This document shows positions 23,894 to 61,742 of a stretch of 64,000 nucleotides of DNA, piece after piece. Numbering within the stretch: position 1 is the stretch's first letter; every line of letters begins with the position of its first letter. Made by a program: the position numbers and the translations under genes. The notes beneath the pieces were generated by a model. The model did not search any database and was not told the DNA's origin. It saw only the letters and a list, made by a program, of their open reading frames with translations. Where the stretch lies: assembly GCA_016783425.1 (NCBI GenBank), contig JADHWP010000001.1, positions 7,272 through 71,271 on the forward strand, in the 5' to 3' direction. This stretch comes from Candidatus Shapirobacteria bacterium. Its GTDB lineage: Bacteria; Patescibacteriota; Microgenomatia; UBA12405; BS750m-G30.

Positions 23894-24664
23894 ATGAGTA
23901 AGAAAAAATCTGCCAAGGAAAAGGCAAAAGTAAAAGAAGAAATTAAAGGCAAAAAAACTAAAGTCGCCGGATTAAAGGGGGGCGAGCGGGTAAAAATGGT
24001 GGAGGGAGAGGGAATAAAAGTAGAAGAAAAAGAAGAGGGAAAAGAAGAAAAGGAAGGCCAGAAAAAAAGAAAAAAGAAAAGCAGGGGAAAGAAATATAAG
24101 GAGGCTCTGGCCAAGGTTGATAAAAATAAACTTTACTCTCTGAAAGAAGCAATTGCTTTGGTTAAAAAAACTTCAATTTCCAGTTTTACTGGTAATCTAG
24201 AGGGTCATTTACTGGTTGATAAAGCCGGGGAAATTGGAGAGCTGAATCTGCCCCACTTTAAAGGCAAAGAAAAAAAAGTGGCCATTGTCGATGGAAAGAC
24301 CTTGACTAAAATCAAAGAAGGGAAAATTGATTTTGAGGTGCTCCTTGCTTCTCCGACGGAAATGAAAAACTTAGTCCCTTTGGCCAAAATCCTGGGCCCG
24401 AAAGGGTTAATGCCTAATCCCAAAAACGGTACTCTAGTCAAGGATCCGGTCAAGGCCGCTAAAAATTGGGGCAAAGGGGGAATAATGTTGGCCACGGAGA
24501 AAAAAGCGCCGGTTATTCATGTAGTTTTAGGCAAAATTGATCAAAAAGACGAAGAGTTGGTGGCTAATGTAGAAGAGCTGATTAAAAGCATTGGTAAAGA
24601 AAAAATTAAAAGAATGACTTTGACTTCCACCATGGGCCCAGGGGTGAAAGTGGCTATTGGGTGA
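23894..24664 (+). CDS. rplA: 50S ribosomal protein L1 with about 70-aa Lys/Glu-rich N-terminal extension
   Basis: 256 aa; conserved LGPKGLMPNPKNGT and STMGPGV blocks. Confidence 0.9.
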   Translation: MSKKKSAKEKAKVKEEIKGKKTKVAGLKGGERVKMVEGEGIKVEEKEEGKEEKEGQKKRKKKSRGKKYKEALAKVDKNKLYSLKEAIALVKKTSISSFTGNLEGHLLVDKAGEIGELNLPHFKGKEKKVAIVDGKTLTKIKEGKIDFEVLLASPTEMKNLVPLAKILGPKGLMPNPKNGTLVKDPVKAAKNWGKGGIMLATEKKAPVIHVVLGKIDQKDEELVANVEELIKSIGKEKIKRMTLTSTMGPGVKVAIG

Positions 24665-24986
24665 TATAATAAAAATAGTGAAGAGTTCAACTAAAATTCC
24701 AGCCTTTGCTCGGGGTGTTTTTTGGTCAGCCAAGATAGAAAATCTTGATTTAAAAAAAGACGAGGTTTATATTATCAACCAAGCGCTTGCCTATGGTACT
24801 TTACCGATAATTAAATGGCTTTTTAAGGCTTATTCTGAAAGAACAATTAAAAAAGTTTTTATTAATCAACCCATTAAAGATTATACCCATCCGCGTTTTA
24901 ATTTTTTAGCAAACTACCTTTTATCTGTTAAAGATAATCTCGATCCACACGACTATGTCCGCAATTTACCTCGAAATACTAGATAA
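24657..24986 (+). CDS. Hypothetical protein, putative partner (antitoxin-like) of the downstream nucleotidyltransferase
   Basis: 109 aa; overlaps the next gene by 32 bp. Confidence 0.4.
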   Translation: MGDIIKIVKSSTKIPAFARGVFWSAKIENLDLKKDEVYIINQALAYGTLPIIKWLFKAYSERTIKKVFINQPIKDYTHPRFNFLANYLLSVKDNLDPHDYVRNLPRNTR

Positions 24987-25614
24987 GTCCAGACGGGAAG
25001 CTTTCGGAAAGTTAAAAGAATTTTCTAAGGGGTATTTGGCTGGTGGAACCGCCTTGGCTTTGCAAATTAATCACCGGCTTTCGTTTGATTTTGATCTTTT
25101 TTTCACCCATCCTTTGAGAAAATCACTAATTAGGAAGTGCCTCCAGCTTTTTGAGGAAGAATCACGAATAATTAGACAAACAGGTGACCAAATTACTATT
25201 ATTACTCCACTGGGTATTAAATTAGACTTTATTCATTATTGGCACAAGCCTATTAGGCCGTTGGTTAAAACTGGAGAGTTGCCTTTGGCCTCAATTTTGG
25301 ATATTGCAGCTGATAAGGCGGCCTGTGTTGGCCGGCGGGCAGTTTGGCGGGATTATGTTGATATTTTTTTCTTACTAAAAAAACAACTCGTTTCTTTAAA
25401 GCAACTGATTAAATTAGCTCAAGAAAAATTTGGGGGAGAGTTTAATGAGCTTCTTTTTTTGGAACAGTTAATATTTTTTAAGGATTTGCCGGTTGCTAAA
25501 ACTGAATTTCTCCAGGAAAAGTATTCTTCAATAGAAATTAAAAAGTATTTGAAAAAAGAGGTTAAGCAATATTTAAAGGAGATTAGTTTTCTCCACCCCC
25601 GAGGTGGGCCTTGA
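24955..25614 (+). CDS. AbiEii-like nucleotidyltransferase-family protein (second copy)
   Basis: 219 aa; YLAGGTALALQINHRLSFDFDLF motif. Confidence 0.6.
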   Translation: MSAIYLEILDKSRREAFGKLKEFSKGYLAGGTALALQINHRLSFDFDLFFTHPLRKSLIRKCLQLFEEESRIIRQTGDQITIITPLGIKLDFIHYWHKPIRPLVKTGELPLASILDIAADKAACVGRRAVWRDYVDIFFLLKKQLVSLKQLIKLAQEKFGGEFNELLFLEQLIFFKDLPVAKTEFLQEKYSSIEIKKYLKKEVKQYLKEISFLHPRGGP

Positions 25615-25625
25615 CTCCTGGGGGG
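25588..25625 (+). terminator. GC-rich hairpin CACCCCCCGAGG-loop-CCTGGGGGGTG overlapping the gene end
   Basis: Member of the CACCCCGAGG/CCTCGGGGTG hairpin family. Confidence 0.45.
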
Positions 25626-25641
25626 TGATATTATTTTTAAT

Positions 25642-26334
25642 ATGAACGTTAAATTTGATGGCTTTCTGGATAATTTCTTTGCCCTGGAAATTGTTCCGGG
25701 CAAAAAGATCAGAATTCCCTATTGGCGCAATAAATTTTTTAAAAATGGGAAAAGAATTCAAGGGCCTTTTGGGGGCAAAGGTACTCCGGCGCAAATAAAG
25801 AGGGCATCTATAAAAAAAGCCAGAGAGGGGAAAATAAGTCTTAATCAACTAAGCTCCGCGCAGATTCGGACTTTTATGAAACAGAAAAAGATCGGCCTGG
25901 ATTGTTCAGGCTTTACTTTTCAGGTACTTAATTTTTTAAAGCCTGGTTTTTACAAAAGGTTTAAAAAAGCCCCGGGAATTAGCCCCAATCCTATTCGCCG
26001 TTTTAATGCCAGGGCTTTAACCAGTAATCAAAATAGTCAGCCGGTTAAAAAAACTAAAAATATTAAAGTGGGCGATTTAATTCCGGTTAGTTTTTCAAAC
26101 GGCAAAATCAACCATGTTTTAGTAGTTGTTGAGGCGGGCAGCAAAGAAATAATCTACGTTCACTCATCCAGTCGTGGCAAAATCACTGGCCCGCATTTAG
26201 GCAAGATCAAGATTATTGATCCAGAGTCAGGTTTGGAAAAACAACACTGGTTGGAAAAAACCAAAAAAGACTTGAATTTGCTCGAATTTGCTTCCCGGCT
26301 GTTGATTAAAATAGGAGTAAGAAGAGTTATTTAA
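25642..26334 (+). CDS. NlpC/P60-family cysteine peptidase-like protein
   Basis: 230 aa; GLDCSGFTFQV catalytic Cys motif with a downstream His. Confidence 0.55.
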   Translation: MNVKFDGFLDNFFALEIVPGKKIRIPYWRNKFFKNGKRIQGPFGGKGTPAQIKRASIKKAREGKISLNQLSSAQIRTFMKQKKIGLDCSGFTFQVLNFLKPGFYKRFKKAPGISPNPIRRFNARALTSNQNSQPVKKTKNIKVGDLIPVSFSNGKINHVLVVVEAGSKEIIYVHSSSRGKITGPHLGKIKIIDPESGLEKQHWLEKTKKDLNLLEFASRLLIKIGVRRVI

Positions 26335-26365
26335 AACAGGCTACGCATTAGAATGGCTATTTTTT

Positions 26366-26794
26366 TCATTTTTTTAAGTAGTTTTTGAGAGAAACGACTG
26401 ACTCGTCTTTAATTTTCCCGTGACATTTGGGATTGGCCGAGATAAGCTGGCATTCAAAATTTTTTGCTAAGGCCACGTAAATAGCATCATAGGCGGTTAA
26501 GTTGTATTTTATAGCAATGGGAATGGAATATTGAACCAGAAAAAGGCTTGTGGGTACGATTTCCACTTTAGTTTGGAAAAATGTTTTTAAAGAGGCAGTA
26601 ACCTCCTTTTGACCAAAACGTTTTCCTTTAAGCAGGGCGTTGGTTAACTCGTGAATTAAGAGATCGCTGGTCTTGGCAATGATTTTATTTTGCTCAAGGT
26701 CAAAAAAGAGTTTTTCGGCCTTTTTTAAGTCAGATTCTTTTTCAGAAGCATACCACTTAACAATTACTGAAGCGTCCAGAATATAAGTTTTCAT
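26366..26794 (-). CDS. vapC: PIN-domain toxin VapC
   Basis: 142 aa; N-terminal ILDASVIVKW with conserved acidic residues. Confidence 0.75.
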   Translation of the reverse strand: MKTYILDASVIVKWYASEKESDLKKAEKLFFDLEQNKIIAKTSDLLIHELTNALLKGKRFGQKEVTASLKTFFQTKVEIVPTSLFLVQYSIPIAIKYNLTAYDAIYVALAKNFECQLISANPKCHGKIKDESVVSLKNYLKK

Positions 26795-27099
26795 CAGTGT
26801 TTTTGACGGTCTTTTACAACGAATTCGGAAAGATTAATCTGGCGGCCAATTTTTCCAATTGTTCTCATTTCTTGCCAAAGAAGCTTAATTTCTTCTTGAG
26901 TCTTAATCTTTTTAAAGGTTGTTTTTTGAGGGGGGATAAAAGGTCGTAATTCTACTTTGTCTGTTTCAGTGGGAGCAATTTCAATAATTGAGTTTGCCCC
27001 GATCCAAGCTAGAGCTTTCCTAATATTGCGAGGGATTGTCAATTGCCCTCGTTCGCGAATTTTGGCAATTTCTCTTAAATCTTCCAAGTGAGTTTTCAT
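26794..27099 (-). CDS. vapB: VapB-type antitoxin (AbrB/MazE-like DNA-binding)
   Basis: 101 aa; RGQLTIPRNIRKAL swapped-hairpin motif; stop/start overlap with vapC. Confidence 0.7.
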   Translation of the reverse strand: MKTHLEDLREIAKIRERGQLTIPRNIRKALAWIGANSIIEIAPTETDKVELRPFIPPQKTTFKKIKTQEEIKLLWQEMRTIGKIGRQINLSEFVVKDRQKH

Positions 27100-27122
27100 A
27101 TTTTAAGAATATCAGAGAATAA

Positions 27123-27414: not shown

Positions 27415-27491
27415 GCACTCGTAGCTTAAACGGAGAGAGCATTCGCCTTCTAAGCGAAAGGTTGTGGGTTCGAGTCCCGCCGAGTGCACCA
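27415..27491 (+). tRNA. tRNA-Arg (anticodon TCT)
   Basis: Cloverleaf folds by eye; acceptor gcactcg/cgagtgc; anticodon loop cttctaa; GTTCGAGTC T-loop; CCA encoded. Confidence 0.85.
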
Positions 27492-27500
27492 AAGGGATTA

Positions 27501-27577
27501 GCGCCCGTAGCTCAACTGGATAGAGCGGCTGTCTTCGGAACAGCGGGTTGGGGGTTCAACTCCTCTCGGGCGCACCA
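27501..27577 (+). tRNA. tRNA-Arg (anticodon TCG)
   Basis: Acceptor gcgcccg/cgggcgc; anticodon stem gctgt/acagc, loop cttcgga; CCA encoded. Confidence 0.8.
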
Positions 27578-29574: not shown

Positions 29575-30599
29575 AGATGACTTCAATGGACATTGAGGGA
29601 CTAAAGTTGGTTGATTTGGAAGAAGTTGCTCAAGTGGAAAGACTTAAGCAGTTTTTACAAGAACAAGGAGTTGAAAAGCCTGAATTTATGACTTCGGGGC
29701 ACATGAATTTGTCTTGGCAGGGGGAATTTCAAGGCAGAGAGGTTGTTTGTCAATTTGGTCCGAATTTATCAACCTATCAATTATCTTTAAGCGAAATAAA
29801 AAGTTACGGTTATTTTAATCCCGGAAAATATGAAAAGGCTCAATTGATCTGCCAAGCTACTTTGGAGGCTGGCATCCCTTGCCCATCAATTCTTAAAGCT
29901 GGCTATGCTGGAACTCTATCAAGATCATGGTGTATTGCTGAAAAGGCAGAAGGTGAAGATTTAGACAAGATTTGGAAACAATTGCCAAGATCAACAAAAC
30001 TATCATTGGGCCATCAAATTGGGGGAAAGATTGCCAATATTCACTCAATTAACCCAGATGTTTATGGCCAAAATCCAATATCACCACAAGCTTGGTATCG
30101 AGGTTGGTTTAAACAGGTTTTTGCTAACCTTTCGGCTCTAGGGATTTACCAGCCTCAAGAGTTGGAAAAAATTAAAGAGAGTATTGTTCCGCAATTTTTG
30201 GCTGAAAATATGCCTCCGTTTTTAACGACTATCCACGGTGATATTCTTCAGAAAAACATTTTTGTTAAAAAGGACCCGAAAGAATACAAAGTAAGCAGTA
30301 TTATTGATTGGGAAACGGCTGGCTTAGGTAATCCTTGGGCAGATGTTATCCTTGCTGCTTGGTGGATTTCTGATGAGTACGGTGGTGATAACAAGCTGTA
30401 TGAAGCTGTTATTGGTGGCTACAATGAGGTTATAAGTGGAGGGGCGCTGGCTCTTTCGCTCAATAGATCCAGGACAATGAGGCCCTATATTGATCTTTGG
30501 TGGTATTTGAATATTTTGTGGGTAAGACCATTGATGGGTGATTTTTCTCAGGTTGAGAGAAGGAGGAAAATGGTCGAAAAAGTAATGGAGGAGTTATGA
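29571..30599 (+). CDS. Aminoglycoside/choline-kinase-like phosphotransferase (APH fold)
   Basis: 342 aa; HGDILQKNIFV catalytic loop and IDWETAG motif. Confidence 0.7.
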   Translation: MKMTSMDIEGLKLVDLEEVAQVERLKQFLQEQGVEKPEFMTSGHMNLSWQGEFQGREVVCQFGPNLSTYQLSLSEIKSYGYFNPGKYEKAQLICQATLEAGIPCPSILKAGYAGTLSRSWCIAEKAEGEDLDKIWKQLPRSTKLSLGHQIGGKIANIHSINPDVYGQNPISPQAWYRGWFKQVFANLSALGIYQPQELEKIKESIVPQFLAENMPPFLTTIHGDILQKNIFVKKDPKEYKVSSIIDWETAGLGNPWADVILAAWWISDEYGGDNKLYEAVIGGYNEVISGGALALSLNRSRTMRPYIDLWWYLNILWVRPLMGDFSQVERRRKMVEKVMEEL

Positions 30600-30696
30600 T
30601 CAAGAATAGGTCAAAAAAATTACTCGATTCCAAAATCTTGAAACTAACAGGGTTTTCTTGTTAATAATTTTTGCTATACTGAAAAAAGGAGAAAAA

Positions 30697-31059
30697 ATGA
30701 ATGATTTTAAAATAGCGCCAGTAAAGCCGGCTGTTAAATATGAAGATTTTGCCAAGCTGGATATTCGGGTGGGGACGATTGAAAAAGTGGAAGATATCAA
30801 GGAGTCTGATAAGCTGGTTAGATTGACAGTAGATTTTGGGGATCATAAAAGAAAAATTTTAGTAGGAATGAAGAAGGAGCGAGCAGACCCGACTGAAGTT
30901 GAGGGCCTGCAAACTTTATTTGTGGTTAATTTAGAACCAAGAAAAATGATGGGGGAAATTTCAGAAGGAATGTTATTAGATTTGAGGTATGCGGATGGGA
31001 TGAGCCCAGTGTTAGTTATTCCCGAAAAAAAAGTGCCCAATGGCACTCGGGCGGGTTAA
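30697..31059 (+). CDS. tRNA-binding domain protein (CsaA/Myf/EMAP-like)
   Basis: Start at MNDFKI with RBS AAAGGAG; OB-fold tRNA-binding signature. Confidence 0.7.
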   Translation: MNDFKIAPVKPAVKYEDFAKLDIRVGTIEKVEDIKESDKLVRLTVDFGDHKRKILVGMKKERADPTEVEGLQTLFVVNLEPRKMMGEISEGMLLDLRYADGMSPVLVIPEKKVPNGTRAG

Positions 31060-31183
31060 AAAGTGAATACAATGAGAAAAACAAAAGGAGAGGGAGTAAC
31101 CTTCGGACGAAACTTTAGGTGTGCCCTCTCATCGTGATAAGTTATTGTAACAAATGGTGAAATATGATGTCAAGCGATAAAAA

Positions 31184-33748
31184 ATGAAGATTAAAGTTGA
31201 TCGAGAAATATTTGAAAAATGGCCTGATTTAAAAATTGGGGTAATGGTTGGTTTGGGGCTAAATAACACCGAAGCCAAACAAAAAAGTCTGGAGTTGCTG
31301 CGAGCAGAGGAAAAAAACCAGCAAAAGCTAATAAAGCTTGAAGAATTGGAGAATCAGGACTTTGTTCGAGCTTGGCGTCAGGTTTATCGTGATTTTGGCG
31401 CTTCACCGAAAAAGTATAAATCGTCAATTGAGGCTTTACTTACCAGGGTATTAACTGAAAAAGAATTACCAGATATTAATCCTTTGGTTAACTTTTATAA
31501 CTACCTTTCTTTAAAATATCATCTTCCTTTTGGAGGAGAGGATTTGGATAAAGTAAAAGGAGACGTTTCTCTTGACTTTGCCAAGGGCAGCGAGAAAGGT
31601 AAGTACATTGGTTCAGATAAAGTAGAGTCAGCCCTGCCCGGGGAAGTAATTTACCAAGATGAATTAGGTTTCATATGCCGAAGATTTAACTGGCGGGAAG
31701 CGGACCGAACCAAATTTACGCCCAAAACCAAAAACGCTATTTTAGTGGCCGAACTATTGCCTCTCGGCAAATCGGAAACACTACAAAAAGCAATTAAGGA
31801 ATTGACTGATTTAGTAGAAAAAGAATTAGGCGGAAAAGTAGCGGTGGCTGTTTTAGATAAACAAAATCCGGTTTTGGAATTTGATTTTGTTTCAGGAAGT
31901 AAATTAACAAGCGGGGACTTGGCCCTTGACAAAATGAAAAAAGTCGAGAAAAAAGAGATTATTGCTAAGTTTAAGCTGCCTACACTTATTACCCCTTTGC
32001 CTGAATGGCTGCCGGAGGAGCGGATAAAAAAGGCTCTTTATTTGGCTTGTGAGGAGCTGGGGAAAGGCTTGGTTTTAAAGGATGAAATTGAAGTTAAACA
32101 CCCGACTTTAGGGGGACACGGGGATTTTGCTTCCAATATTGCTTTGGTTTTAGCTAAAAAACTTAAAAAAAATCCAGGGGAAATAGCCAAAAATTTAGTT
32201 GAGAAAATTAAAGATCAGTCTTTAGATTGGGTTGGAAAAATTGAAACAGCCGGTCCTGGCTTTATCAATTTTTGGTTAAGCAAGGAATATTTATTTAAAC
32301 AAGCCCGGGGATTTTTGAAAGACAATTTTTTTAAAGAAAAGCTGGGGAAGGCGGAAGAGGGGAAAGTGGCAGTCATTGATTATTCCGCTCCTAATATTGC
32401 CAAATCTTTTGGGATTGGACATTTGCGTTCCACTAGCATCGGCCAAGCCATTTACAATCTTTATTCTTTTTTGGGTTGGGAAACTATTGGGGACAATCAT
32501 TTGGGAGACTGGGGAACCCAATTTGGAAAGCTTATTGTGGCGATAAAAAAATGGTGGCCAAAAGAGTTGCAGGAATTAACGGTTGAGGAGTTGGAAAAGC
32601 TATACGTTAAGTTTCACACGGAAGCTAAAAAAGACAAAAGCCTGGAAAATGAGGGTCGGGCTTGGTTTAAAAAGTTGGAGGACGGGGATCAGGAAGCAAA
32701 AGAGATTTGGCAAGTTTGTACGGACGTTTCTTTAAAAGAATTTAAGCGGATTTATGATTTATTGGGAGTAAGAATTGATTATGCTTACGGAGAGGCCTTT
32801 TATCATTTTGGCGGGTGGATGGAAAAAGTGCTGGCTGATTTAAAAAAGAGAAAGTTAGTCAAAAAAAGCCAGGGGGCGTTGGTAATTGAAATTCCGGAAA
32901 TAAAAGTGCCGGGAATGCTGGTCAAATCAGACGGAGGCACGACTTATCTTTTTCGGGATATGGCGACCATATTTTTTAGAATGGAAAAATGGAACCCGGA
33001 TTTGGTGATTTACGAAGTCGGGGCAGACCAGAAATTTCATTTTCAGCAGGTATTTGCCGCTTCTCAAAAAGCAGGATATATTGATAGCAAAAAACTAGTC
33101 CATGTTCCTCATGGGCTAATTCGCTGGAAGCATGGCAAGTTTTCCACCCGCAAAGGCGATACCATTCATTTGGAAGAAATTTTAAAAGAAGGAATTGAAA
33201 AAGCCTATCAAATAGTGGAAAAAAGCCAGACCAGCGAAGGCTTGAACAAAAGTGAAAAAATGAAAATTGCCAAGGCGGTCGGAATTGGAGGAGTGAAATT
33301 TAATGATTTAAAGCAGGAGCCGGAAAAAGACATTATTTTTGAGTGGGAAAAGATTTTAACCCTAGCAGGATATTCTGCTCCTTATCTCCAATATACCTAT
33401 GCTCGTTGTGCCTCGGTTTTAGCAAAAGCAGAGAATTTAAGTTTTGAAAAGATTTCTTTGAGTTCAGGTCTTGAGAAAGAAGAACTTTCCTTGTTGCGCA
33501 GCTTCTACCAGTTTCCAGAGGTAATTTTAATTTCTGCCAATAACTTCGCCCCTCACCTACTGGCGCAGTATTTATTTGATCTGGCGCAAAAGTTTAATCT
33601 TTTTTACCAAAAACACCGAATACTTTCAAACTCCAAACTTCAAACTTCAAACACTCAAGAATTTAGACTGTTTTTAACTAAGATTGCTGCTCAAGTTTTG
33701 AAAATGGGGTTGGAAATTTTAGGAATTGAAGTGCTGGAGAAAATGTAG
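31184..33748 (+). CDS. argS: Arginine--tRNA ligase with N-terminal B3/B4 tRNA-binding/editing-like domain fusion
   Basis: 854 aa; residues about 270-854 are ArgS (APNIAKSFGIGHLRST HIGH region, DALR C-terminus); residues about 1-260 resemble the PheT B3/B4 domain. Confidence 0.85.
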   Translation: MKIKVDREIFEKWPDLKIGVMVGLGLNNTEAKQKSLELLRAEEKNQQKLIKLEELENQDFVRAWRQVYRDFGASPKKYKSSIEALLTRVLTEKELPDINPLVNFYNYLSLKYHLPFGGEDLDKVKGDVSLDFAKGSEKGKYIGSDKVESALPGEVIYQDELGFICRRFNWREADRTKFTPKTKNAILVAELLPLGKSETLQKAIKELTDLVEKELGGKVAVAVLDKQNPVLEFDFVSGSKLTSGDLALDKMKKVEKKEIIAKFKLPTLITPLPEWLPEERIKKALYLACEELGKGLVLKDEIEVKHPTLGGHGDFASNIALVLAKKLKKNPGEIAKNLVEKIKDQSLDWVGKIETAGPGFINFWLSKEYLFKQARGFLKDNFFKEKLGKAEEGKVAVIDYSAPNIAKSFGIGHLRSTSIGQAIYNLYSFLGWETIGDNHLGDWGTQFGKLIVAIKKWWPKELQELTVEELEKLYVKFHTEAKKDKSLENEGRAWFKKLEDGDQEAKEIWQVCTDVSLKEFKRIYDLLGVRIDYAYGEAFYHFGGWMEKVLADLKKRKLVKKSQGALVIEIPEIKVPGMLVKSDGGTTYLFRDMATIFFRMEKWNPDLVIYEVGADQKFHFQQVFAASQKAGYIDSKKLVHVPHGLIRWKHGKFSTRKGDTIHLEEILKEGIEKAYQIVEKSQTSEGLNKSEKMKIAKAVGIGGVKFNDLKQEPEKDIIFEWEKILTLAGYSAPYLQYTYARCASVLAKAENLSFEKISLSSGLEKEELSLLRSFYQFPEVILISANNFAPHLLAQYLFDLAQKFNLFYQKHRILSNSKLQTSNTQEFRLFLTKIAAQVLKMGLEILGIEVLEKM

Positions 33749-33750
33749 GA

Positions 33751-35244
33751 ATGGTTGAAAAACATTACCAATTTTACTGGCGAGAACTTGAAAAAAAACA
33801 AGAAGTTTTAATTTCCTCTTTTATTCCTACTTATTTGCAGATGCAACCCTCGCTTCACCCCTTGGCTAATAATCCCCAAAAGGTGGATGGGGGAGCTTTG
33901 AGTTATGCTTTAGGCCGCCTGCCCAACTGTATTGGCCAGGTAGACAGGGTGTTGCTGGGCCAAAGTCGAGGAGATTTTGCCAAAGCGGGTTTTAAAATAA
34001 GCGAAGCCCAGGAAGCGCTAACTAAAGCTCGAAAAAGGCGCTGTTACTTTCTGCCAAACAAGGCTACTTTAGCCTGCTATATTGCTTCAGCAACGGATGT
34101 TGACGATTTGGTTAACGCTTTAATTGCCTACCTTATTGAAAAAAGAAAACAGGGGGAGCAAAAGGAGATTAGTGTTCAACTGCTGGCTGATCATGAAGTG
34201 GGATACCGCCAAATTGCCCAAAGCTGGTGGACGCAAGTAAGAAATAATTTTTTGGCGCTGGGATTGGAAGATAAGCCCCTATATTTTATTTCTTCCAATT
34301 TACACGGGCTGGTAAACATTATTGGCGGTTTTGCGCGCAGTAAGCAGGTGGAGATTTTTGACTATATTCAAAAAAGTCAACCGGAAATGTACCGGGAGTG
34401 GTTAAAAATCGAAAAAGGGGAAAATAAGTTAAGAGTTAATCATTTTCTTTATTATCTTTCCAAGTTGTATTTTGAAACCCACCCCAAAGCCTTTGCCGAA
34501 AAATTAAGGTTTGAAGAGAAAATAGGAATTAAACAGGTAAGATCGGTGGAGGGGTTGGATTGCAACGCTCAGCTCATTCCTGTTTCTTTGCTGGGAACCA
34601 CCCAATCGTTGGATCCCCACTTAAAAGTTAGTTATCCAAGCGAGCTTGCTAAAAGCGAAGCCTTAATTATTAATATTCAGTATCCGTTAGGAATGTCCGC
34701 CTACTATCTTCTTTCCGAGCTTTTGGAAAACCTAAAGCTACTCAAGGGAGTTTACATTATTGGCAAGGCGGCGATTTTAGCGGGACAAGTAGGGGATATT
34801 CAGATTCCGAGCACTGTTTTTGATAAAAATTCGCGGCAAACTTTTTTGTTTCCTAATATTTTTAACCAGAAGTTTCCCTTTGCCTCTTTTCAGGCCAGTA
34901 TCTTAAAAGAGCAAAAAGCAGTATCGGTTAAAGGGACTTTTTTGGAAAACCAAAAGCAGTTGGAAGGCTATAAAGAGGCTAATTTTAATATTGTAGAGAT
35001 GGAATCCGGGCCCTATCTTAAGGCTTTATCTGAATATCAATCTGAAGTTAATTTAGGACCGGAAGGTTATTTTCACCTGGACAATCTTCCTTTGGAATTA
35101 GGGATTATTAATTATGCCTCTGATAATCCTTTTGCCGAGGAAAGTTTAGCCAAAGGAACTTTGGGATTACGGGGGATAGAGTCTACTTACTTAGCGGGCT
35201 TGGCCGTTTTGGAGCGGATTATTCAAAAAGAAGAAATGGCTTGA
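33751..35244 (+). CDS. Hypothetical protein with C-terminal nucleoside phosphorylase (PNP_UDP_1)-like region, possibly AMP-nucleosidase-like
   Basis: 497 aa; C-terminal IVEMESGPYL and GKAAILAG segments recall the phosphorylase superfamily. Confidence 0.4.
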   Translation: MVEKHYQFYWRELEKKQEVLISSFIPTYLQMQPSLHPLANNPQKVDGGALSYALGRLPNCIGQVDRVLLGQSRGDFAKAGFKISEAQEALTKARKRRCYFLPNKATLACYIASATDVDDLVNALIAYLIEKRKQGEQKEISVQLLADHEVGYRQIAQSWWTQVRNNFLALGLEDKPLYFISSNLHGLVNIIGGFARSKQVEIFDYIQKSQPEMYREWLKIEKGENKLRVNHFLYYLSKLYFETHPKAFAEKLRFEEKIGIKQVRSVEGLDCNAQLIPVSLLGTTQSLDPHLKVSYPSELAKSEALIINIQYPLGMSAYYLLSELLENLKLLKGVYIIGKAAILAGQVGDIQIPSTVFDKNSRQTFLFPNIFNQKFPFASFQASILKEQKAVSVKGTFLENQKQLEGYKEANFNIVEMESGPYLKALSEYQSEVNLGPEGYFHLDNLPLELGIINYASDNPFAEESLAKGTLGLRGIESTYLAGLAVLERIIQKEEMA

Positions 35245-36543
35245 GCGGGCTGACTTTTTAAAGCCCAGTTTTTTGAGTATTTTGGTTGTGGTTTGGGGAT
35301 ATTGGCAAATATCTTTAAAAATTATTTTAAGATTTCTTTTTTGACCCCGATGGAGAATAAACCGATAAATTGTTTTTCCGTGCTTTTGTAAGTAGCGCTT
35401 GTGTTTTAAAAAGGTGCCGATAGAGGCCTGCTTTTCTTTCTGGTTGATCATTTTCAAGCCAATATGACCGAGGGGGTGATTATTTTTCGTAATTAGCCAG
35501 TAGGCAAAAGCCGGGTTGTAAATTAAATTATTGAGCCAGGCTTTGATTTGGTCTTTGCTTTTGGGGGTAAAGGTAAAAAGATTCTGTCTTGTTTGGGGTT
35601 TTTTAAATTCTCGTAAATGGAAACGCAAAAGTTTGGAGTCGGGAGAAAAAGGAATAAATTCCAATCCCTGATATTTTATTCGCTTGGTGTTTGGCTTGCT
35701 GATATTAAAAATAAAACCCTCTTTTTTAATTGTTTTTAAACAGGAAGAAAAGCCAAGATTGGTTAATTTTTTTCGTAATCGAGAGATATACTGGTCCAGA
35801 GCATAGTCGGAATATTCATAATTTTCGCCCCAAAGGTGGTGAGCTAGTTTTTCCCGATTGATTATTTTATCCTGATTTTTTGCAAAAATTTCCAGTCCTT
35901 TTTGTTGCTGGAGTGAAAGATGAGAGGTAACTTTTTTAAGATTAACCTCTTTTTCTTGGCCAGGGAAACTTAATTGCAAGTAGTTTTTTAATGCTCTGTC
36001 AACCTTTAAGGTTGACAGAGTGTGATTGGTTTTTTTAATAATTCCGGTTTTAAGCAGATAATCAAGTTCATTTTTTTGGTAAAAAAAAGATTGTAAGTTT
36101 TTTTGGGAGATTTGCTGCAAAATTAGCTGCTGATTTTCAGAAAGGAGGCTAAAAAACAAATTGGGCTTAGACTGGCGGCCAGGATCAGGAAGATAAATTA
36201 GCCGTTTAAGAAAATAGCTCTCTTTAAGCTGGTTATAAAGCCTTTCTTGTTTTAGATTTTGGTCGAAAACCAGAATGATTCTGGCTTGCTTAAAGTTTTT
36301 TTCAAAAGCGCGCTCCAACCTAATTAGAAGTGGCAGGGAGGCTAAATAAAAATTGGGAAAGCTGATAATGCTTAATCGAGAAAAATTAATTTTGTTTAGA
36401 CTCATTTTGCTTTCGATCGTGAACAGTTTGGCCCCGGGCCAAATTTTTCTAAGAGAGGAAATTGGAAACAAGGGAGCGGTAATTAGGGTTTGAAAATGAT
36501 ATTTGGCCAAATTAATTTTGGCCCTCCCAGCCCAGTTGTCCAT
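35191..36543 (-). CDS. Putative regulator: ATPase-like N-region, central OmpR/PhoB-type winged helix, C-terminal GNAT-like domain
   Basis: 450 aa; LEIFAKNQDKIINREKLAHHLWGENYEYSDYALDQYISRLRKKL matches trans_reg_C and is paralogous to the 8716-9687 protein; carries a REP palindrome in frame (LSTLKVD); divergent from repeat copy 1. Confidence 0.6.
   Translation of the reverse strand: MDNWAGRAKINLAKYHFQTLITAPLFPISSLRKIWPGAKLFTIESKMSLNKINFSRLSIISFPNFYLASLPLLIRLERAFEKNFKQARIILVFDQNLKQERLYNQLKESYFLKRLIYLPDPGRQSKPNLFFSLLSENQQLILQQISQKNLQSFFYQKNELDYLLKTGIIKKTNHTLSTLKVDRALKNYLQLSFPGQEKEVNLKKVTSHLSLQQQKGLEIFAKNQDKIINREKLAHHLWGENYEYSDYALDQYISRLRKKLTNLGFSSCLKTIKKEGFIFNISKPNTKRIKYQGLEFIPFSPDSKLLRFHLREFKKPQTRQNLFTFTPKSKDQIKAWLNNLIYNPAFAYWLITKNNHPLGHIGLKMINQKEKQASIGTFLKHKRYLQKHGKTIYRFILHRGQKRNLKIIFKDICQYPQTTTKILKKLGFKKSARSSHFFFLNNPLQNGQAR
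35997..36017. repeat. REP palindrome (TGTCAACCTTTAAGGTTGACA) lying in frame inside the 35191-36543 CDS
   Basis: Exact 21-bp palindrome (7 codons) identical to the intergenic copies. Confidence 0.85.
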
Positions 36544-39644: not shown

Positions 39645-40079
39645 CTATTTTTGTGACTCTAAAAATTCCTCTATTTTTTGGCAGTATTTAATAATATCAC
39701 CCAATTCGTATTTAATTGCCTGGTAGACTTTTTCTCTGGCTACTGATAGATATTCATGGACTAAAATATTTCTCATTCCGGCCATTTTAGCCAGTTTTTG
39801 AGCTAGTTTTTTATCAATCACTCCTAATTTGTAAAGAATGAGGAATAATTCCTTGTTTTCTCGTTTTGGTTTTTCCATTGCTGCTTGGCTGACAATGTGT
39901 GCGGCAATGTCCAGGCAGGCCTGGATAGCGACTTGCAAACGATATTCAGCGGCATCAGCAATATCAGCGCTGGCAAGAAAACTGGCCTCATTTGTTTTTG
40001 CGGCTGTTTCCTTTAACAGCTGAAGCCGCTTCCTGATTGCCGCAAGACGATCTCTAATACGCGAATGGTCGAGCATCAA
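39645..40079 (-). CDS. HEPN-domain toxin (HepT/DUF86-like)
   Basis: 144 aa; R-x4-HEY motif (RNILVHEY); overlaps the upstream MNT gene by 26 bp. Confidence 0.75.
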   Translation of the reverse strand: MMLDHSRIRDRLAAIRKRLQLLKETAAKTNEASFLASADIADAAEYRLQVAIQACLDIAAHIVSQAAMEKPKRENKELFLILYKLGVIDKKLAQKLAKMAGMRNILVHEYLSVAREKVYQAIKYELGDIIKYCQKIEEFLESQK

Positions 40080-40506
40080 TTACTCCTTTTCTAGCTAAAT
40101 TAGCGATTTGCAACTCATATTCCTGGTAAAAGTTTTTCAGGTCAAAATAATTACGAGAGATTTTAAGCTCAAAATCAACTCTTTGGTACGACTCTTTTCC
40201 CAAAAGGAGTTTTCCCTGGCTGATAACCCGAAAAGCAAAGGGCAGTGAAACAGCGTCCAGACTTTGAGTTTCGACTTTCTTTTTAAGCAGTTTAGAGAGT
40301 TGATTGGCTAGTTTGATTTGAGCGAATAAATTTTGATCTAATTTTGATTTTTTCTTATACAGAATTGCCAAATCCAGATCAGAATTTTTTTTGGCTTTAC
40401 CAACAGCAAACGAACCGTAAAGATAAACGGCGATTATTCCCTTTTGTTTTTTAAGAAAATTCTTGATTTGGTCAATTTGCATTTTAGTTAAATTCATTTG
40501 CTTCAT
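40054..40506 (-). CDS. Minimal nucleotidyltransferase antitoxin (MntA-like)
   Basis: 150 aa; YLYGSFAVGKAKKNSDLDLAIL (GS...DxD) motif. Confidence 0.75.
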   Translation of the reverse strand: MKQMNLTKMQIDQIKNFLKKQKGIIAVYLYGSFAVGKAKKNSDLDLAILYKKKSKLDQNLFAQIKLANQLSKLLKKKVETQSLDAVSLPFAFRVISQGKLLLGKESYQRVDFELKISRNYFDLKNFYQEYELQIANLARKGVIDARPFAY

Positions 40507-61665: not shown

Positions 61666-61742
61666 TTTGGTGTCTCCGAAGGGAATCGAACCCCCAGTTC
61701 TTCCTCCGCAGGGAAGTGTTTTATCCGTTAAACTACGGAGAC
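61666..61742 (-). tRNA. tRNA-Arg (anticodon GCG)
   Basis: Acceptor gtctccg/cggagac; anticodon stem cttcc/ggaag, loop ctgcgga; GGTTCGATTCC T-arm; CCA encoded. Confidence 0.8.

What the first reader, a model, noticed from the sequence alone, without database searches (positions are those of the whole stretch)
31184..33748. Arginyl-tRNA synthetase fused to an N-terminal B3/B4 (PheT-type) tRNA-binding/editing-like domain
The 854-aa ORF has a complete ArgS body (HIGH-region APNIAKSFGIGHLRST, DALR C-terminus) preceded by about 260 aa resembling the B3/B4 domain of the PheRS beta subunit. I do not know this fusion from characterised ArgS enzymes. It could represent a trans-editing or tRNA-capture module recruited to ArgS. 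A free-standing CsaA-like tRNA-binding protein is encoded just upstream (30697-31059).
Basis: partly seen in the sequence, partly recalled or inferred. Interest (0 to 1): 0.6.

Follow-up and report, generated by a model that had tools for sequence, protein, structure and literature searches.

The report
Arginyl-tRNA synthetase with built-in proofreading domain
This gene joins the enzyme that loads arginine onto its tRNA to a domain of the recently discovered CtdA family, which strips the toxic arginine look-alike canavanine off that same tRNA. That makes it a likely natural example of a proofreading arginyl-tRNA synthetase, an enzyme so far described as having no editing domain.

Summary
ORF 31184-33748 (+) encodes 854 aa: a B3/4-fold domain (aa 1-235), a disordered linker (about aa 236-267) and a complete ArgRS (Add1, catalytic and DALR domains).

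The N-domain is not PheT-type. Its closest relatives by sequence (E 3e-27 and 9e-25) and by fold (TM 0.86-0.88) are the two solved CtdA canavanyl-tRNA(Arg) deacylases. All four mutationally validated CtdA pocket residues are present: N106, G117, C165 and E172.

The fusion is real. The identical protein occurs in four independent assemblies. 39 of the best 150 hits among 50%-identity cluster representatives share the architecture; those carrying a source name are Candidatus Shapirobacteria or Gottesmanbacteria. Close free-standing homologues lie immediately upstream of argS, once with a 4-nt overlap.

Best explanation: a bifunctional ArgRS whose tethered CtdA-type domain hydrolyses tRNA(Arg) mischarged with an arginine analogue. 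Activity, substrate and cis versus trans action are inferred.

The three CtdA papers call CtdA standalone, and one states that no ArgRS editing domain is described. I found no report of this fusion.

Verdict: new variant of a known kind. Interest 0.66.

The parts
31184..33748 (+). Whole gene: CtdA-like deacylase domain, linker and ArgRS (854 aa plus stop). Identical to NCBI MBL7078077.1, annotated only as 'arginine--tRNA ligase [Candidatus Shapirobacteria bacterium]'.
31184..31888 (+). CtdA-type B3/4-fold aminoacyl-tRNA deacylase domain (aa 1-235).
   Evidence: PDB sequence search: 9mkl_A E 3.3e-27, 9f7e_A E 8.9e-25. AF2 model pLDDT 94.4. Foldseek: 9f7e_A E 1.9e-19, TM 0.86/0.88, rmsd 2.5 A.
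31499..31501 (+). Codon of N106, equivalent to S. enterica CtdA N105 (N105A is inactive).
   Evidence: Alignment (the PDB chain numbering runs +2). PMC12449066. N in all 131 CtdA-like sequences aligned.
31532..31534 (+). Codon of G117, equivalent to CtdA G116 (G116H and G116W are inactive). PheRS has His265 at this position.
31676..31678 (+). Codon of C165, equivalent to CtdA C166, the residue that modulates specificity and activity.
   Evidence: C in 16 and T in 10 of 26 fusions.
31697..31699 (+). Codon of E172, equivalent to CtdA Q173. According to PMC12449066, Glu occupies this position in the active C. perfringens CtdA.
   Evidence: E in 10 and Q in 16 of 26 fusions.
31889..31984 (+). Flexible interdomain linker (about aa 236-267).
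   Evidence: pLDDT below 50 for aa 240-263. Mean pairwise identity 19%, and length 19-36 aa, among 26 fusions. The unfused orthologue P0101 starts at the segment homologous to aa ~262-295.
31985..32278 (+). ArgRS N-terminal Add1 domain (aa 268-365).
   Evidence: PF03485 at aa 280-364, E 4.4e-21
32345..33346 (+). ArgRS class I catalytic domain (aa 388-721). The HIGH-type motif GIGH is at aa 410-413 (32411-32422) and KFSTRKG at aa 652-658 (33137-33157).
   Evidence: PF00750 E 1.3e-85. E. coli ArgRS 4oby E 4.4e-95. Foldseek TMt 0.87-0.89.
33386..33745 (+). DALR anticodon-binding domain (aa 735-854).
   Evidence: PF05746 E 1.7e-29
30697..31059 (+). Neighbouring free-standing tRNA_bind (Trbp111/CsaA/MetRS-C-like) gene. 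A functional link to the fusion is possible but not shown.
   Evidence: PF01588 E 3.4e-22. A sister-lineage ArgRS, P0107, carries a tRNA_bind domain fused at its N-terminus. The neighbour is absent from other fusion loci L088-L090.

Best explanation
The gene encodes a bifunctional arginyl-tRNA synthetase. The C-terminal ~590 aa are an intact E. coli-type ArgRS that charges tRNA(Arg). The N-terminal 235 aa are a CtdA-type (B3/4-fold) aminoacyl-tRNA deacylase held on a disordered tether of about 30 aa. I propose that this domain hydrolyses tRNA(Arg) mischarged by the ArgRS body with an arginine analogue, canavanine being the only known CtdA substrate. That would give ArgRS post-transfer editing. 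It could act in cis, with the 3' end swinging from the synthetic to the editing pocket while the tRNA stays bound, or as a tethered trans-editor that captures the product on release. The fusion probably arose by loss of the stop codon in a ctdA-argS operon, which still exists in relatives. SHOWN: domain order; homology and fold identity with CtdA; presence of the four tested pocket residues; an intact ArgRS; recurrence of the fusion; ctdA-argS adjacency in relatives. INFERRED: deacylase activity, substrate identity, cis versus trans action, and the direction of the evolutionary events.
For: (1) Architecture.
(2) The N-domain is CtdA-type. The PDB sequence search finds only the two CtdA entries, at E 3e-27 and 9e-25. 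The fold search puts CtdA first with TM 0.86-0.88, and PheRS beta far behind.
(3) Pocket residues shown by mutagenesis to be required in S. enterica CtdA are N105, G116, C166 and Q173 (PMC12449066). They correspond to N106, G117, C165 and E172 here. The paper reports Glu at the last position in the active C. perfringens enzyme. N and G are invariant in all 131 fused and free sequences aligned.
(4) Across 26 fusions the N-domain is as conserved as a core ArgRS domain: 44.7% mean pairwise identity, against 47.6% for DALR and 32.6% for Add1. The linker is at 19% and varies in length. This is the pattern of two selected modules joined by a tether.
(5) The ArgRS body passes the TIGR00456 equivalog cut-off and aligns end to end with E. 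coli ArgRS.
(6) Gene linkage. The free-standing homologue P0009 overlaps the argS start by 4 nt. P0011 lies 14 nt upstream of argS. L041 is also adjacent. P0015 sits in argH-GNAT-argG-OTC-OTC-ctdA-NYN-argS.
(7) Recurrence: 28 fused clusters among 90%-identity hits, three fusions among species-representative genomes (two Gottesmanbacteria and one unclassified Patescibacteria), and 39 of the best 150 50%-identity representatives.
(8) Published biochemistry shows that ArgRS and CtdA already cooperate. [quoted passage not shown]
Against: No activity data exist for any fused protein or for any Patescibacteria CtdA homologue. Canavanine is a legume metabolite, and no source of it in this organism's habitat is known. 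The habitat itself was not examined here. The fusion is not fixed. In a neighbour-joining tree (no bootstrap) fused and unfused ArgRS are interleaved. The closest ArgRS, P0101 (76.5% identical, syntenic locus), has no CtdA domain or remnant. 12 of 39 representative fusions have lost N106/G117 or half of the domain, so the function is dispensable in some lineages. The domain is attached to Add1, which in known ArgRS-tRNA complexes binds the tRNA elbow, far from the CCA end. Cis geometry therefore depends on the flexible linker. AF2 gives no confident interdomain placement (pTM 0.72, linker pLDDT below 50). Most free-standing homologues in other phyla are not near argS: 76 of 80 genome loci.
Confidence: 0.68

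Rival explanations
1. The N-domain is a non-catalytic tRNA-binding or tRNA-capture module. It would raise affinity for tRNA(Arg), as appended tRNA_bind or EMAPII-like domains do for other synthetases, without hydrolysing anything.
For: N-terminal accretion of tRNA-handling modules occurs in this ArgRS lineage: P0107 carries tRNA_bind at the same position. About a third of representative fusions have lost pocket residues yet keep the domain, so a non-catalytic role may exist in some lineages.
Against: In this protein, and in about 27 of 39 representative fusions, the mutationally validated pocket residues are retained. N106 and G117 are invariant in 131 sequences. A mere binding role would not require them.
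Confidence: 0.14
2. The domain is an active deacylase, but its substrate or role differs from canavanine editing. It might clear another mischarged arginine analogue or near-cognate amino acid, or deacylate Arg-tRNA(Arg) in a regulated way.
For: PMC12449066 itself raises other roles for CtdA in organisms not exposed to canavanine, and shows weak Arg-tRNA(Arg) hydrolysis. One fused subclade has T165/Q172/C173 in place of C165/E172/A173. Homologues sit with arginine-biosynthesis genes and beside a Peptidase_S51 gene.
Against: The pocket quartet here matches characterised CtdA-1 enzymes. No alternative substrate is known for any family member.
Confidence: 0.15
3. The fusion is an artefact (frameshift, missed stop codon or chimeric assembly), and the organism really has two genes.
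For: Relatives do have two adjacent genes.
Against: The identical ORF appears in four independent assemblies. The frame is continuous with even GC. Dozens of diverged fusions exist at 31-65% ArgRS-part identity.
Confidence: 0.01
4. The domain is a PheRS-type B3/B4 editing domain that hydrolyses Tyr- or m-Tyr-tRNA(Phe), as the label 'PheT-type' implies.
For: The fold superfamily is shared. Pfam B3_4 matches, and there is a weak TIGR00472 pheT hit at E 8e-4.
Against: PheRS beta is a distant structural match only. Using the CtdA/PheRS correspondence published in PMC12449066, PheRS H265 is Gly here and G318 is Glu; only the shared Asn is kept. CtdA cannot replace PheRS editing in vivo.
Confidence: 0.01

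Closest known systems
CtdA, canavanyl-tRNA(Arg) deacylase, clade CtdA-1 (P. canavaninivorans 9f7e; S. enterica 9mkl; PMC10018355, PMC12268091, PMC12449066)
   Same: Same fold (TM 0.86-0.88) and same length of about 230 aa. Same four tested pocket residues (N, G, C, Q/E). Same cognate system, tRNA(Arg)/ArgRS.
   Different: All described CtdAs are standalone single-domain proteins acting in trans. Here the domain is covalently joined to ArgRS. Identity is about 27-30% in the structural alignment. No guanidine riboswitch lies upstream, whereas CtdA genes are reported to be frequently riboswitch-controlled (PMC10018355). The host is a Patescibacteria lineage, a group named in none of the three CtdA papers.
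B3/B4 editing domain of the PheRS beta subunit
   Same: Same fold superfamily (Pfam B3_4). Both are aminoacyl-tRNA hydrolytic domains that form part of a synthetase polypeptide.
   Different: Different pocket residues, different substrate (Tyr- or m-Tyr-tRNA(Phe)) and a class II heterotetramer context. The structural match is weak (E about 1e-7, 11-14% identity).
Canonical ArgRS (E. coli 4oby, 5yym, 5b63)
   Same: Add1, Rossmann catalytic and DALR domains. 33% identity in the Foldseek alignment, HMMER E 4e-95, TMt 0.87-0.89.
   Different: Canonical ArgRS has no appended deacylase and is described as lacking any editing domain (PMC10018355). The first His of HIGH is Gly here (GIGH), a trait shared with unfused Patescibacteria ArgRS.
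N-terminally appended INS/ProXp-like editing domains of some eukaryotic ProRS, and their free-standing YbaK/ProXp homologues (from my own knowledge, not tested here)
   Same: The same evolutionary logic: one deacylase family is found free-standing, inserted or terminally fused to its cognate synthetase.
   Different: Unrelated fold (INS/YbaK) and a class II synthetase.

Membership tests
Arginyl-tRNA synthetase (class Ia, argS) | Full-length match to the curated equivalog model above its cut-off | tested here: met
   TIGR00456: 452 bits against a cut-off of 261.65, aa 283-854
Arginyl-tRNA synthetase (class Ia, argS) | Add1 N-terminal domain, Rossmann catalytic domain and DALR anticodon-binding domain, in that order | tested here: met
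   PF03485, PF00750 and PF05746. Foldseek TMt 0.87-0.89 to E. coli ArgRS.
Arginyl-tRNA synthetase (class Ia, argS) | HIGH-type and (K)MSTR/K-type signature motifs | tested here: met
   GIGH aligns with E. coli HVGH, with a conserved Lys407 upstream. FSTRKG aligns with FKTRAG. The variant GIGH is shared with unfused orthologues.
Arginyl-tRNA synthetase (class Ia, argS) | Arginylation of tRNA(Arg) | not testable with these tools
   Needs an enzyme assay. No second ArgRS is encoded in the 64-kb window. The rest of the genome was not available.
CtdA (canavanyl-tRNA(Arg) deacylase, CtdA-1) | B3/4 fold of about 230 aa, closest to solved CtdA structures | tested here: met
CtdA (canavanyl-tRNA(Arg) deacylase, CtdA-1) | Pocket residues N105, G116, C166 and Q173 (or Glu), S. 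enterica numbering | tested here: met
   N106, G117, C165 and E172, with V188 in place of I189 (PMC12449066). C166 is the residue that distinguishes CtdA-1 from CtdA-2.
CtdA (canavanyl-tRNA(Arg) deacylase, CtdA-1) | Standalone single-domain protein acting in trans | tested here: not met
   The domain is covalently fused to ArgRS. This is the point of novelty.
CtdA (canavanyl-tRNA(Arg) deacylase, CtdA-1) | Selective hydrolysis of canavanyl-tRNA(Arg) | not testable with these tools
   Needs a deacylation assay
CtdA (canavanyl-tRNA(Arg) deacylase, CtdA-1) | Placement inside the published CtdA-1 clade by phylogeny | not tested
   My neighbour-joining tree included only partial 9mkl and 9f7e sequences as outgroup. 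No CtdA-2 or PheRS sequences were included.
PheRS beta B3/B4 editing domain | E. coli PheT editing-site residues R244, N254, H265, G318 and others | tested here: not met
   Using the published CtdA/PheRS correspondence and the alignment: R244 is Pro96 here, H265 is Gly117 and G318 is Glu172. Only N254 (Asn106) is kept.
PheRS beta B3/B4 editing domain | Embedded in a PheT polypeptide (B1, B2, B5, B6-8 domains) | tested here: not met
   No other PheT domains are present. The TIGR00472 match is only 17.7 bits against a cut-off of 402.

The most novel reading that the evidence does not exclude
ArgRS, described as a synthetase without editing, has acquired a functional post-transfer editing domain in Patescibacteria by capturing its own trans-editing factor. 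These lineages also preserve every stage of that process: free-standing gene, overlapping operon, fusion, tandem-duplicated domain (P0227), decayed pseudo-domain and loss. That would make them a natural time series for how synthetase editing domains are born and die. It would further imply that mischarging of tRNA(Arg) with arginine analogues is a general hazard well beyond legume-associated habitats.
Probability: 0.5. Interest if true: 0.8.

Novelty: new variant of a known kind. Interest (0 to 1): 0.66.

Why it matters
ArgRS is among the synthetases for which no editing activity or domain has been described. The first tRNA(Arg) editing factor, CtdA, was reported only in 2023, and as a standalone protein.

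A natural CtdA-ArgRS fusion matters in four ways.
- It is independent genomic ('Rosetta stone') confirmation that this B3/4 subfamily works on the ArgRS/tRNA(Arg) system far outside the organisms studied.
- It supplies a ready-made system for asking how CtdA recognises tRNA, which PMC12449066 states is unknown, and whether tethering changes specificity or the protection of Arg-tRNA(Arg).
- It extends the known set of synthetases that can carry an editing module.
- It raises an ecological question: which arginine analogue threatens these bacteria?

The many fused, split, duplicated and decayed versions form a compact data set on the evolution of synthetase editing domains.

Tried and rejected
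- **Frameshift or assembly join near 31960:** rejected.
- **Internal translation start for a separate ArgRS:** the only Met in the linker (M250, ATG at 31934) has no Shine-Dalgarno-like sequence upstream. Not supported.
- **Guanidine or other riboswitch, or T-box, upstream:** CtdA genes are often under a guanidine riboswitch. No Rfam family reaches threshold in the window except tRNAs, and a permissive scan of 30400-31400 gave only a chance-level preQ1-II hit at E 0.9.
- **Intergenic hairpin 31088-31131:** z = -2.8, but not conserved in the syntenic locus L088. Dropped.
- **Conserved tRNA_bind neighbour:** absent from the other fusion loci L088-L090, so it is not a general part of the system.
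- **CtdA remnant upstream of the closest unfused ArgRS (L091):** none found at E < 1.
- **N-terminal 230-aa extension of P0152 and P0176 as a decayed CtdA domain:** no HMM match. It is a different, unknown module.
- **Interdomain geometry in the AF2 model:** No conclusion on cis geometry.
- **Literature:** six full-text searches and term look-ups in four papers, three of them for fusion-related terms, found no mention of a CtdA- or B3/4-ArgRS fusion. Subscription journals are not covered.
Full report
**1. The observation**

The window has a single uninterrupted ORF at 31184..33748 (+), ATG to stop, 854 aa. Pfam places four domains in this order:
- B3_4 at aa 63-193 (E 9.3e-23)
- Arg_tRNA_synt_N at aa 280-364
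- tRNA-synt_1d at aa 388-721 (E 1.3e-85)
- DALR_1 at aa 735-854

The NCBIfam argS equivalog TIGR00456 scores 452 bits, against a cut-off of 261.65, over aa 283-854. The gene just upstream (30697-31059) is a 120-aa tRNA_bind protein.

**2. The fusion is not an artefact**

GC content is even across the gene, and the junction reads through cleanly. The identical 854-aa protein is called on contigs from four independent assemblies with the same neighbours. It is also in NCBI as MBL7078077.1, annotated only as 'arginine--tRNA ligase [Candidatus Shapirobacteria bacterium]'.

A search with the full protein found 28 further 90%-identity clusters with the same Pfam order, 688-1058 aa long. Those aligned are 40-62% identical to the query. 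Several are labelled Candidatus Shapirobacteria.

Among species-representative genomes, two Gottesmanbacteria and one other Patescibacteria genome encode fusions of 907-951 aa. Their ArgRS halves are only 31-33% identical to this one.

An exhaustive profile search of 1.84 billion 50%-identity representatives put 39 CtdA-like+ArgRS proteins among the best 150 hits.

**3. What the N-terminal domain is**

Searching aa 1-279 against all PDB sequences returned two significant hits (the next was E 0.03), both CtdA canavanyl-tRNA(Arg) deacylases: 9mkl_A (S. enterica, E 3.3e-27) and 9f7e_A (P. canavaninivorans, E 8.9e-25).

AlphaFold2 models are confident. The full-length model has pLDDT 91.9, and the N-domain alone 94.4. 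Foldseek ranks the CtdA structures first for the N-domain (E 2e-19, TM 0.81-0.88, rmsd 2.5-3.0 A). PheRS beta subunits trail at E about 3e-8, TMq about 0.55 and 11-14% identity. The ArgRS body superposes on E. coli ArgRS with TMt 0.87-0.89.

CtdA was discovered in 2023 as a standalone B3/4 protein that deacylates canavanyl-tRNA(Arg) (PMC10018355). Mutagenesis of the S. enterica enzyme showed that N105, G116, C166 and Q173 are needed. C166 modulates specificity, and Glu is tolerated at position 173 in the active C. perfringens enzyme (PMC12449066).

In the HMMER alignment, where the PDB chain numbering runs +2, these residues correspond to N106, G117, C165 and E172 of the window protein. I189 corresponds to V188. 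C166 is also the feature that separates clade CtdA-1 from CtdA-2, so the domain is CtdA-1-like.

The PheRS editing residues are not kept. By the published correspondence, H265 aligns with G117 and G318 with E172. The label 'PheT-type' is therefore right only at superfamily level. The specific family explains why the partner is ArgRS.

**4. Anatomy and selection**

The AF2 model shows two well-folded modules joined by a segment with pLDDT below 50 (aa 240-263). The closest unfused orthologue starts at the segment homologous to aa ~262-295, so the linker is roughly aa 236-267.

Mean pairwise identities across 26 full-length fusions:

| Region | Mean pairwise identity |
|---|---|
| CtdA-like domain | 44.7% |
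| Linker (19-36 aa long) | 19.1% |
| Add1 | 32.6% |
| Catalytic domain | 57.8% |
| DALR | 47.6% |

The deacylase module is thus conserved about as well as a core ArgRS domain, while the tether evolves freely. N106 and G117 are invariant in all 26 fusions and in all 131 fused and free sequences aligned. Position 165 is C (16) or T (10), and position 172 is Q (16) or E (10).

The ArgRS half aligns end to end with E. coli ArgRS (E 4.4e-95). Its HIGH-type motif is GIGH, where E. coli has HVGH. The unfused Patescibacteria ArgRSs share this variant, so it is not a sign of decay.

**5. Genomic context in relatives**

Close free-standing homologues (about 50% identity) tend to sit with argS:
- P0009 ends 4 nt inside the argS start codon region, an ATGA overlap.
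- P0011 is 14 nt upstream of argS.
- A Peregrinibacteria homologue (L041) is adjacent to argS.
- P0015 lies in an arginine-themed row: argH-GNAT-argG-OTCase-OTCase-ctdA-NYN-argS.
- P0013 is not near argS.
- More distant homologues from many phyla are not linked to argS: 76 of 80 genome loci.

This is the classic pattern for a fusion arising by stop-codon loss in an operon. It also ties the subfamily to ArgRS independently of the published biochemistry.

**6. Evolutionary dynamics (weaker evidence)**

In neighbour-joining trees without support values, fused and unfused proteins are interleaved, both for the ArgRS half and for the CtdA half.

The closest ArgRS to the window's is the unfused P0101: 76.5% identical, in a syntenic NusG-L11-L1...argS locus, with no CtdA remnant. 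The fused P0100 (65%) is the next branch out. One long-branched clade of 16 fusions is all-fused in the CtdA tree.

Among the 39 representative fusions, about 27 keep the pocket residues and 12 have lost N106/G117 or the C-terminal half of the domain. One protein, P0227, has two tandem CtdA-like domains.

So the module is gained, lost, duplicated and decayed repeatedly. In the window protein it is fully intact.

**7. Mechanism proposed**

The ArgRS body charges tRNA(Arg). When it mischarges an arginine analogue, the tethered CtdA-type domain hydrolyses the ester bond. Canavanine is the only known CtdA substrate, and E. coli and P. canavaninivorans ArgRS accept it.

[quoted passage not shown] Tethering would make that cooperation obligatory and could supply tRNA specificity, given that CtdA's mode of tRNA recognition is unknown.

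Activity, substrate and cis versus trans action are all inferred. The attachment point is Add1, which binds the tRNA elbow in known ArgRS-tRNA complexes (my own knowledge of those structures). The linker would have to span the distance to the CCA end, and the model gives no confident interdomain geometry.

**8. Rivals**

- A non-catalytic tRNA-capture role is made less likely here by the retained pocket, but is plausible for the decayed versions.
- A different substrate or a regulatory role cannot be excluded.
- An artefact and PheRS-type editing are effectively excluded.

**9. Novelty**

All three CtdA papers describe a standalone enzyme. None contains the words 'fusion' or 'fused'. PMC10018355 states that no editing domain in ArgRS has been described. 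Full-text searches that combined ArgRS, CtdA, B3 B4, editing domain, Patescibacteria and fusion terms found nothing further. The proteins are in public databases, but annotated only as arginine--tRNA ligase.

This is a new combination of two known parts, so I rate it a new variant of a known kind. It would be notable to specialists because it would be the first ArgRS with an editing module. Subscription literature was not searchable, so prior description cannot be fully excluded.

Noticed in passing
window 30697-31059 (+); L007 6001-8139: A free-standing tRNA_bind protein lies 124 nt upstream of the fusion. In a sister lineage the ArgRS (P0107, 67% identical in the ArgRS part) has a tRNA_bind domain fused to its N-terminus instead of CtdA. 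The ArgRS N-terminus seems to be a hot spot for adding tRNA-handling modules. The neighbour is not conserved at other fusion loci.
   Followed up: partly
window 27415-27491, 27501-27577 (+); 61668-61742 (-): Tandem tRNA-Arg(UCU) and tRNA-Arg(UCG) genes lie 3.6 kb upstream of the fusion on the same strand. A third, tRNA-Arg(GCG), is elsewhere in the window. All three encode CCA.
   Followed up: no
window 33751-35244 (+): A DUF6909 gene (497 aa, E 6e-136) starts 3 nt after the fusion's stop codon and is probably co-transcribed. Its function is unknown, and it is not found downstream of the fusion in L088-L090.
   Followed up: no
window 35191-36543 (-): A 450-aa protein combines a winged-helix Trans_reg_C domain with a C-terminal GNAT acetyltransferase. 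It is convergent with DUF6909 and overlaps it by 54 nt. GNAT genes also sit near free-standing ctdA-like genes in L094 and L095, and a canavanine-selective GNAT is known (PMC10416765, abstract). No link was tested.
   Followed up: no
P0227 (1124 aa): A representative protein with two tandem CtdA-like domains (aa 1-236 and 266-507) in front of ArgRS. Both copies keep N and G. The pocket Cys is T in one and V in the other.
   Followed up: partly
P0225, P0230, P0232, P0235, P0236, P0238, P0249, P0254, P0268, P0289, P0303, P0366: Twelve of 39 representative CtdA-ArgRS fusions have lost the essential Asn and/or Gly, or retain only the N-terminal half of the domain. They look like decayed pseudo-editing domains.
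   Followed up: partly
P0003 (427 aa, 2.8-kb contig) and P0002 (486 aa): P0003 is a CtdA-like domain followed by an Amidase (PF01425, GatA-like) domain. Over the N-terminal stretch inspected, its sequence is identical to that of P0002, which continues into ArgRS. It is either a chimeric short contig or a second kind of fusion to a tRNA-dependent amidotransferase-like enzyme.
   Followed up: no
L089 4381-5004; L090 4208-4801; L010 5433-5945; L095 4702-5193: A NYN-domain (putative RNase) gene lies directly upstream of the CtdA-ArgRS fusion in three diverged loci, and between ctdA and argS in a fourth. This is a recurrent neighbour of unknown role. None was seen next to the fusion in this window.
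   Followed up: partly
L095 1-7173: A free-standing ctdA-like gene is embedded in an arginine-themed row: argininosuccinate lyase, GNAT, argininosuccinate synthase, two OTCase-like genes, ctdA, NYN, argS.
   Followed up: no
P0152 aa 1-235; P0176 aa 1-235; P0104 aa ~330-520: Three ArgRS proteins share an unannotated module of about 190 aa (no Pfam hit) at or inside the Add1 domain. In P0104 it coexists with the CtdA-like domain, giving 1058 aa.
   Followed up: no
window 31088-31131 (+): A GAGAGGG...CCCTCTC hairpin lies in the 124-nt spacer before the fusion gene (fold z = -2.8). It is not conserved in the syntenic locus L088 and matches no Rfam family.
   Followed up: yes
L008-L087: The CtdA-like genes most similar to this domain in species-representative genomes come largely from small-genome lineages, alongside Acidobacteriota and Clostridia. 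These lineages include many Patescibacteria, DPANN archaea (Micrarchaeota, Woesearchaeota, Nanoarchaeia, Nanohalarchaeota), Chlamydiae and Dependentiae. This is a wider distribution than the groups listed in PMC12449066, but the list is biased by similarity to the query.
   Followed up: no
window about 24640-27100 and 39645-40500 (from L001 gene calls): Several toxin-antitoxin-type pairs flank the region: DUF6922/AbiEii, a PIN gene with a small partner gene, and HepT/MNT nucleotidyltransferase.
   Followed up: no
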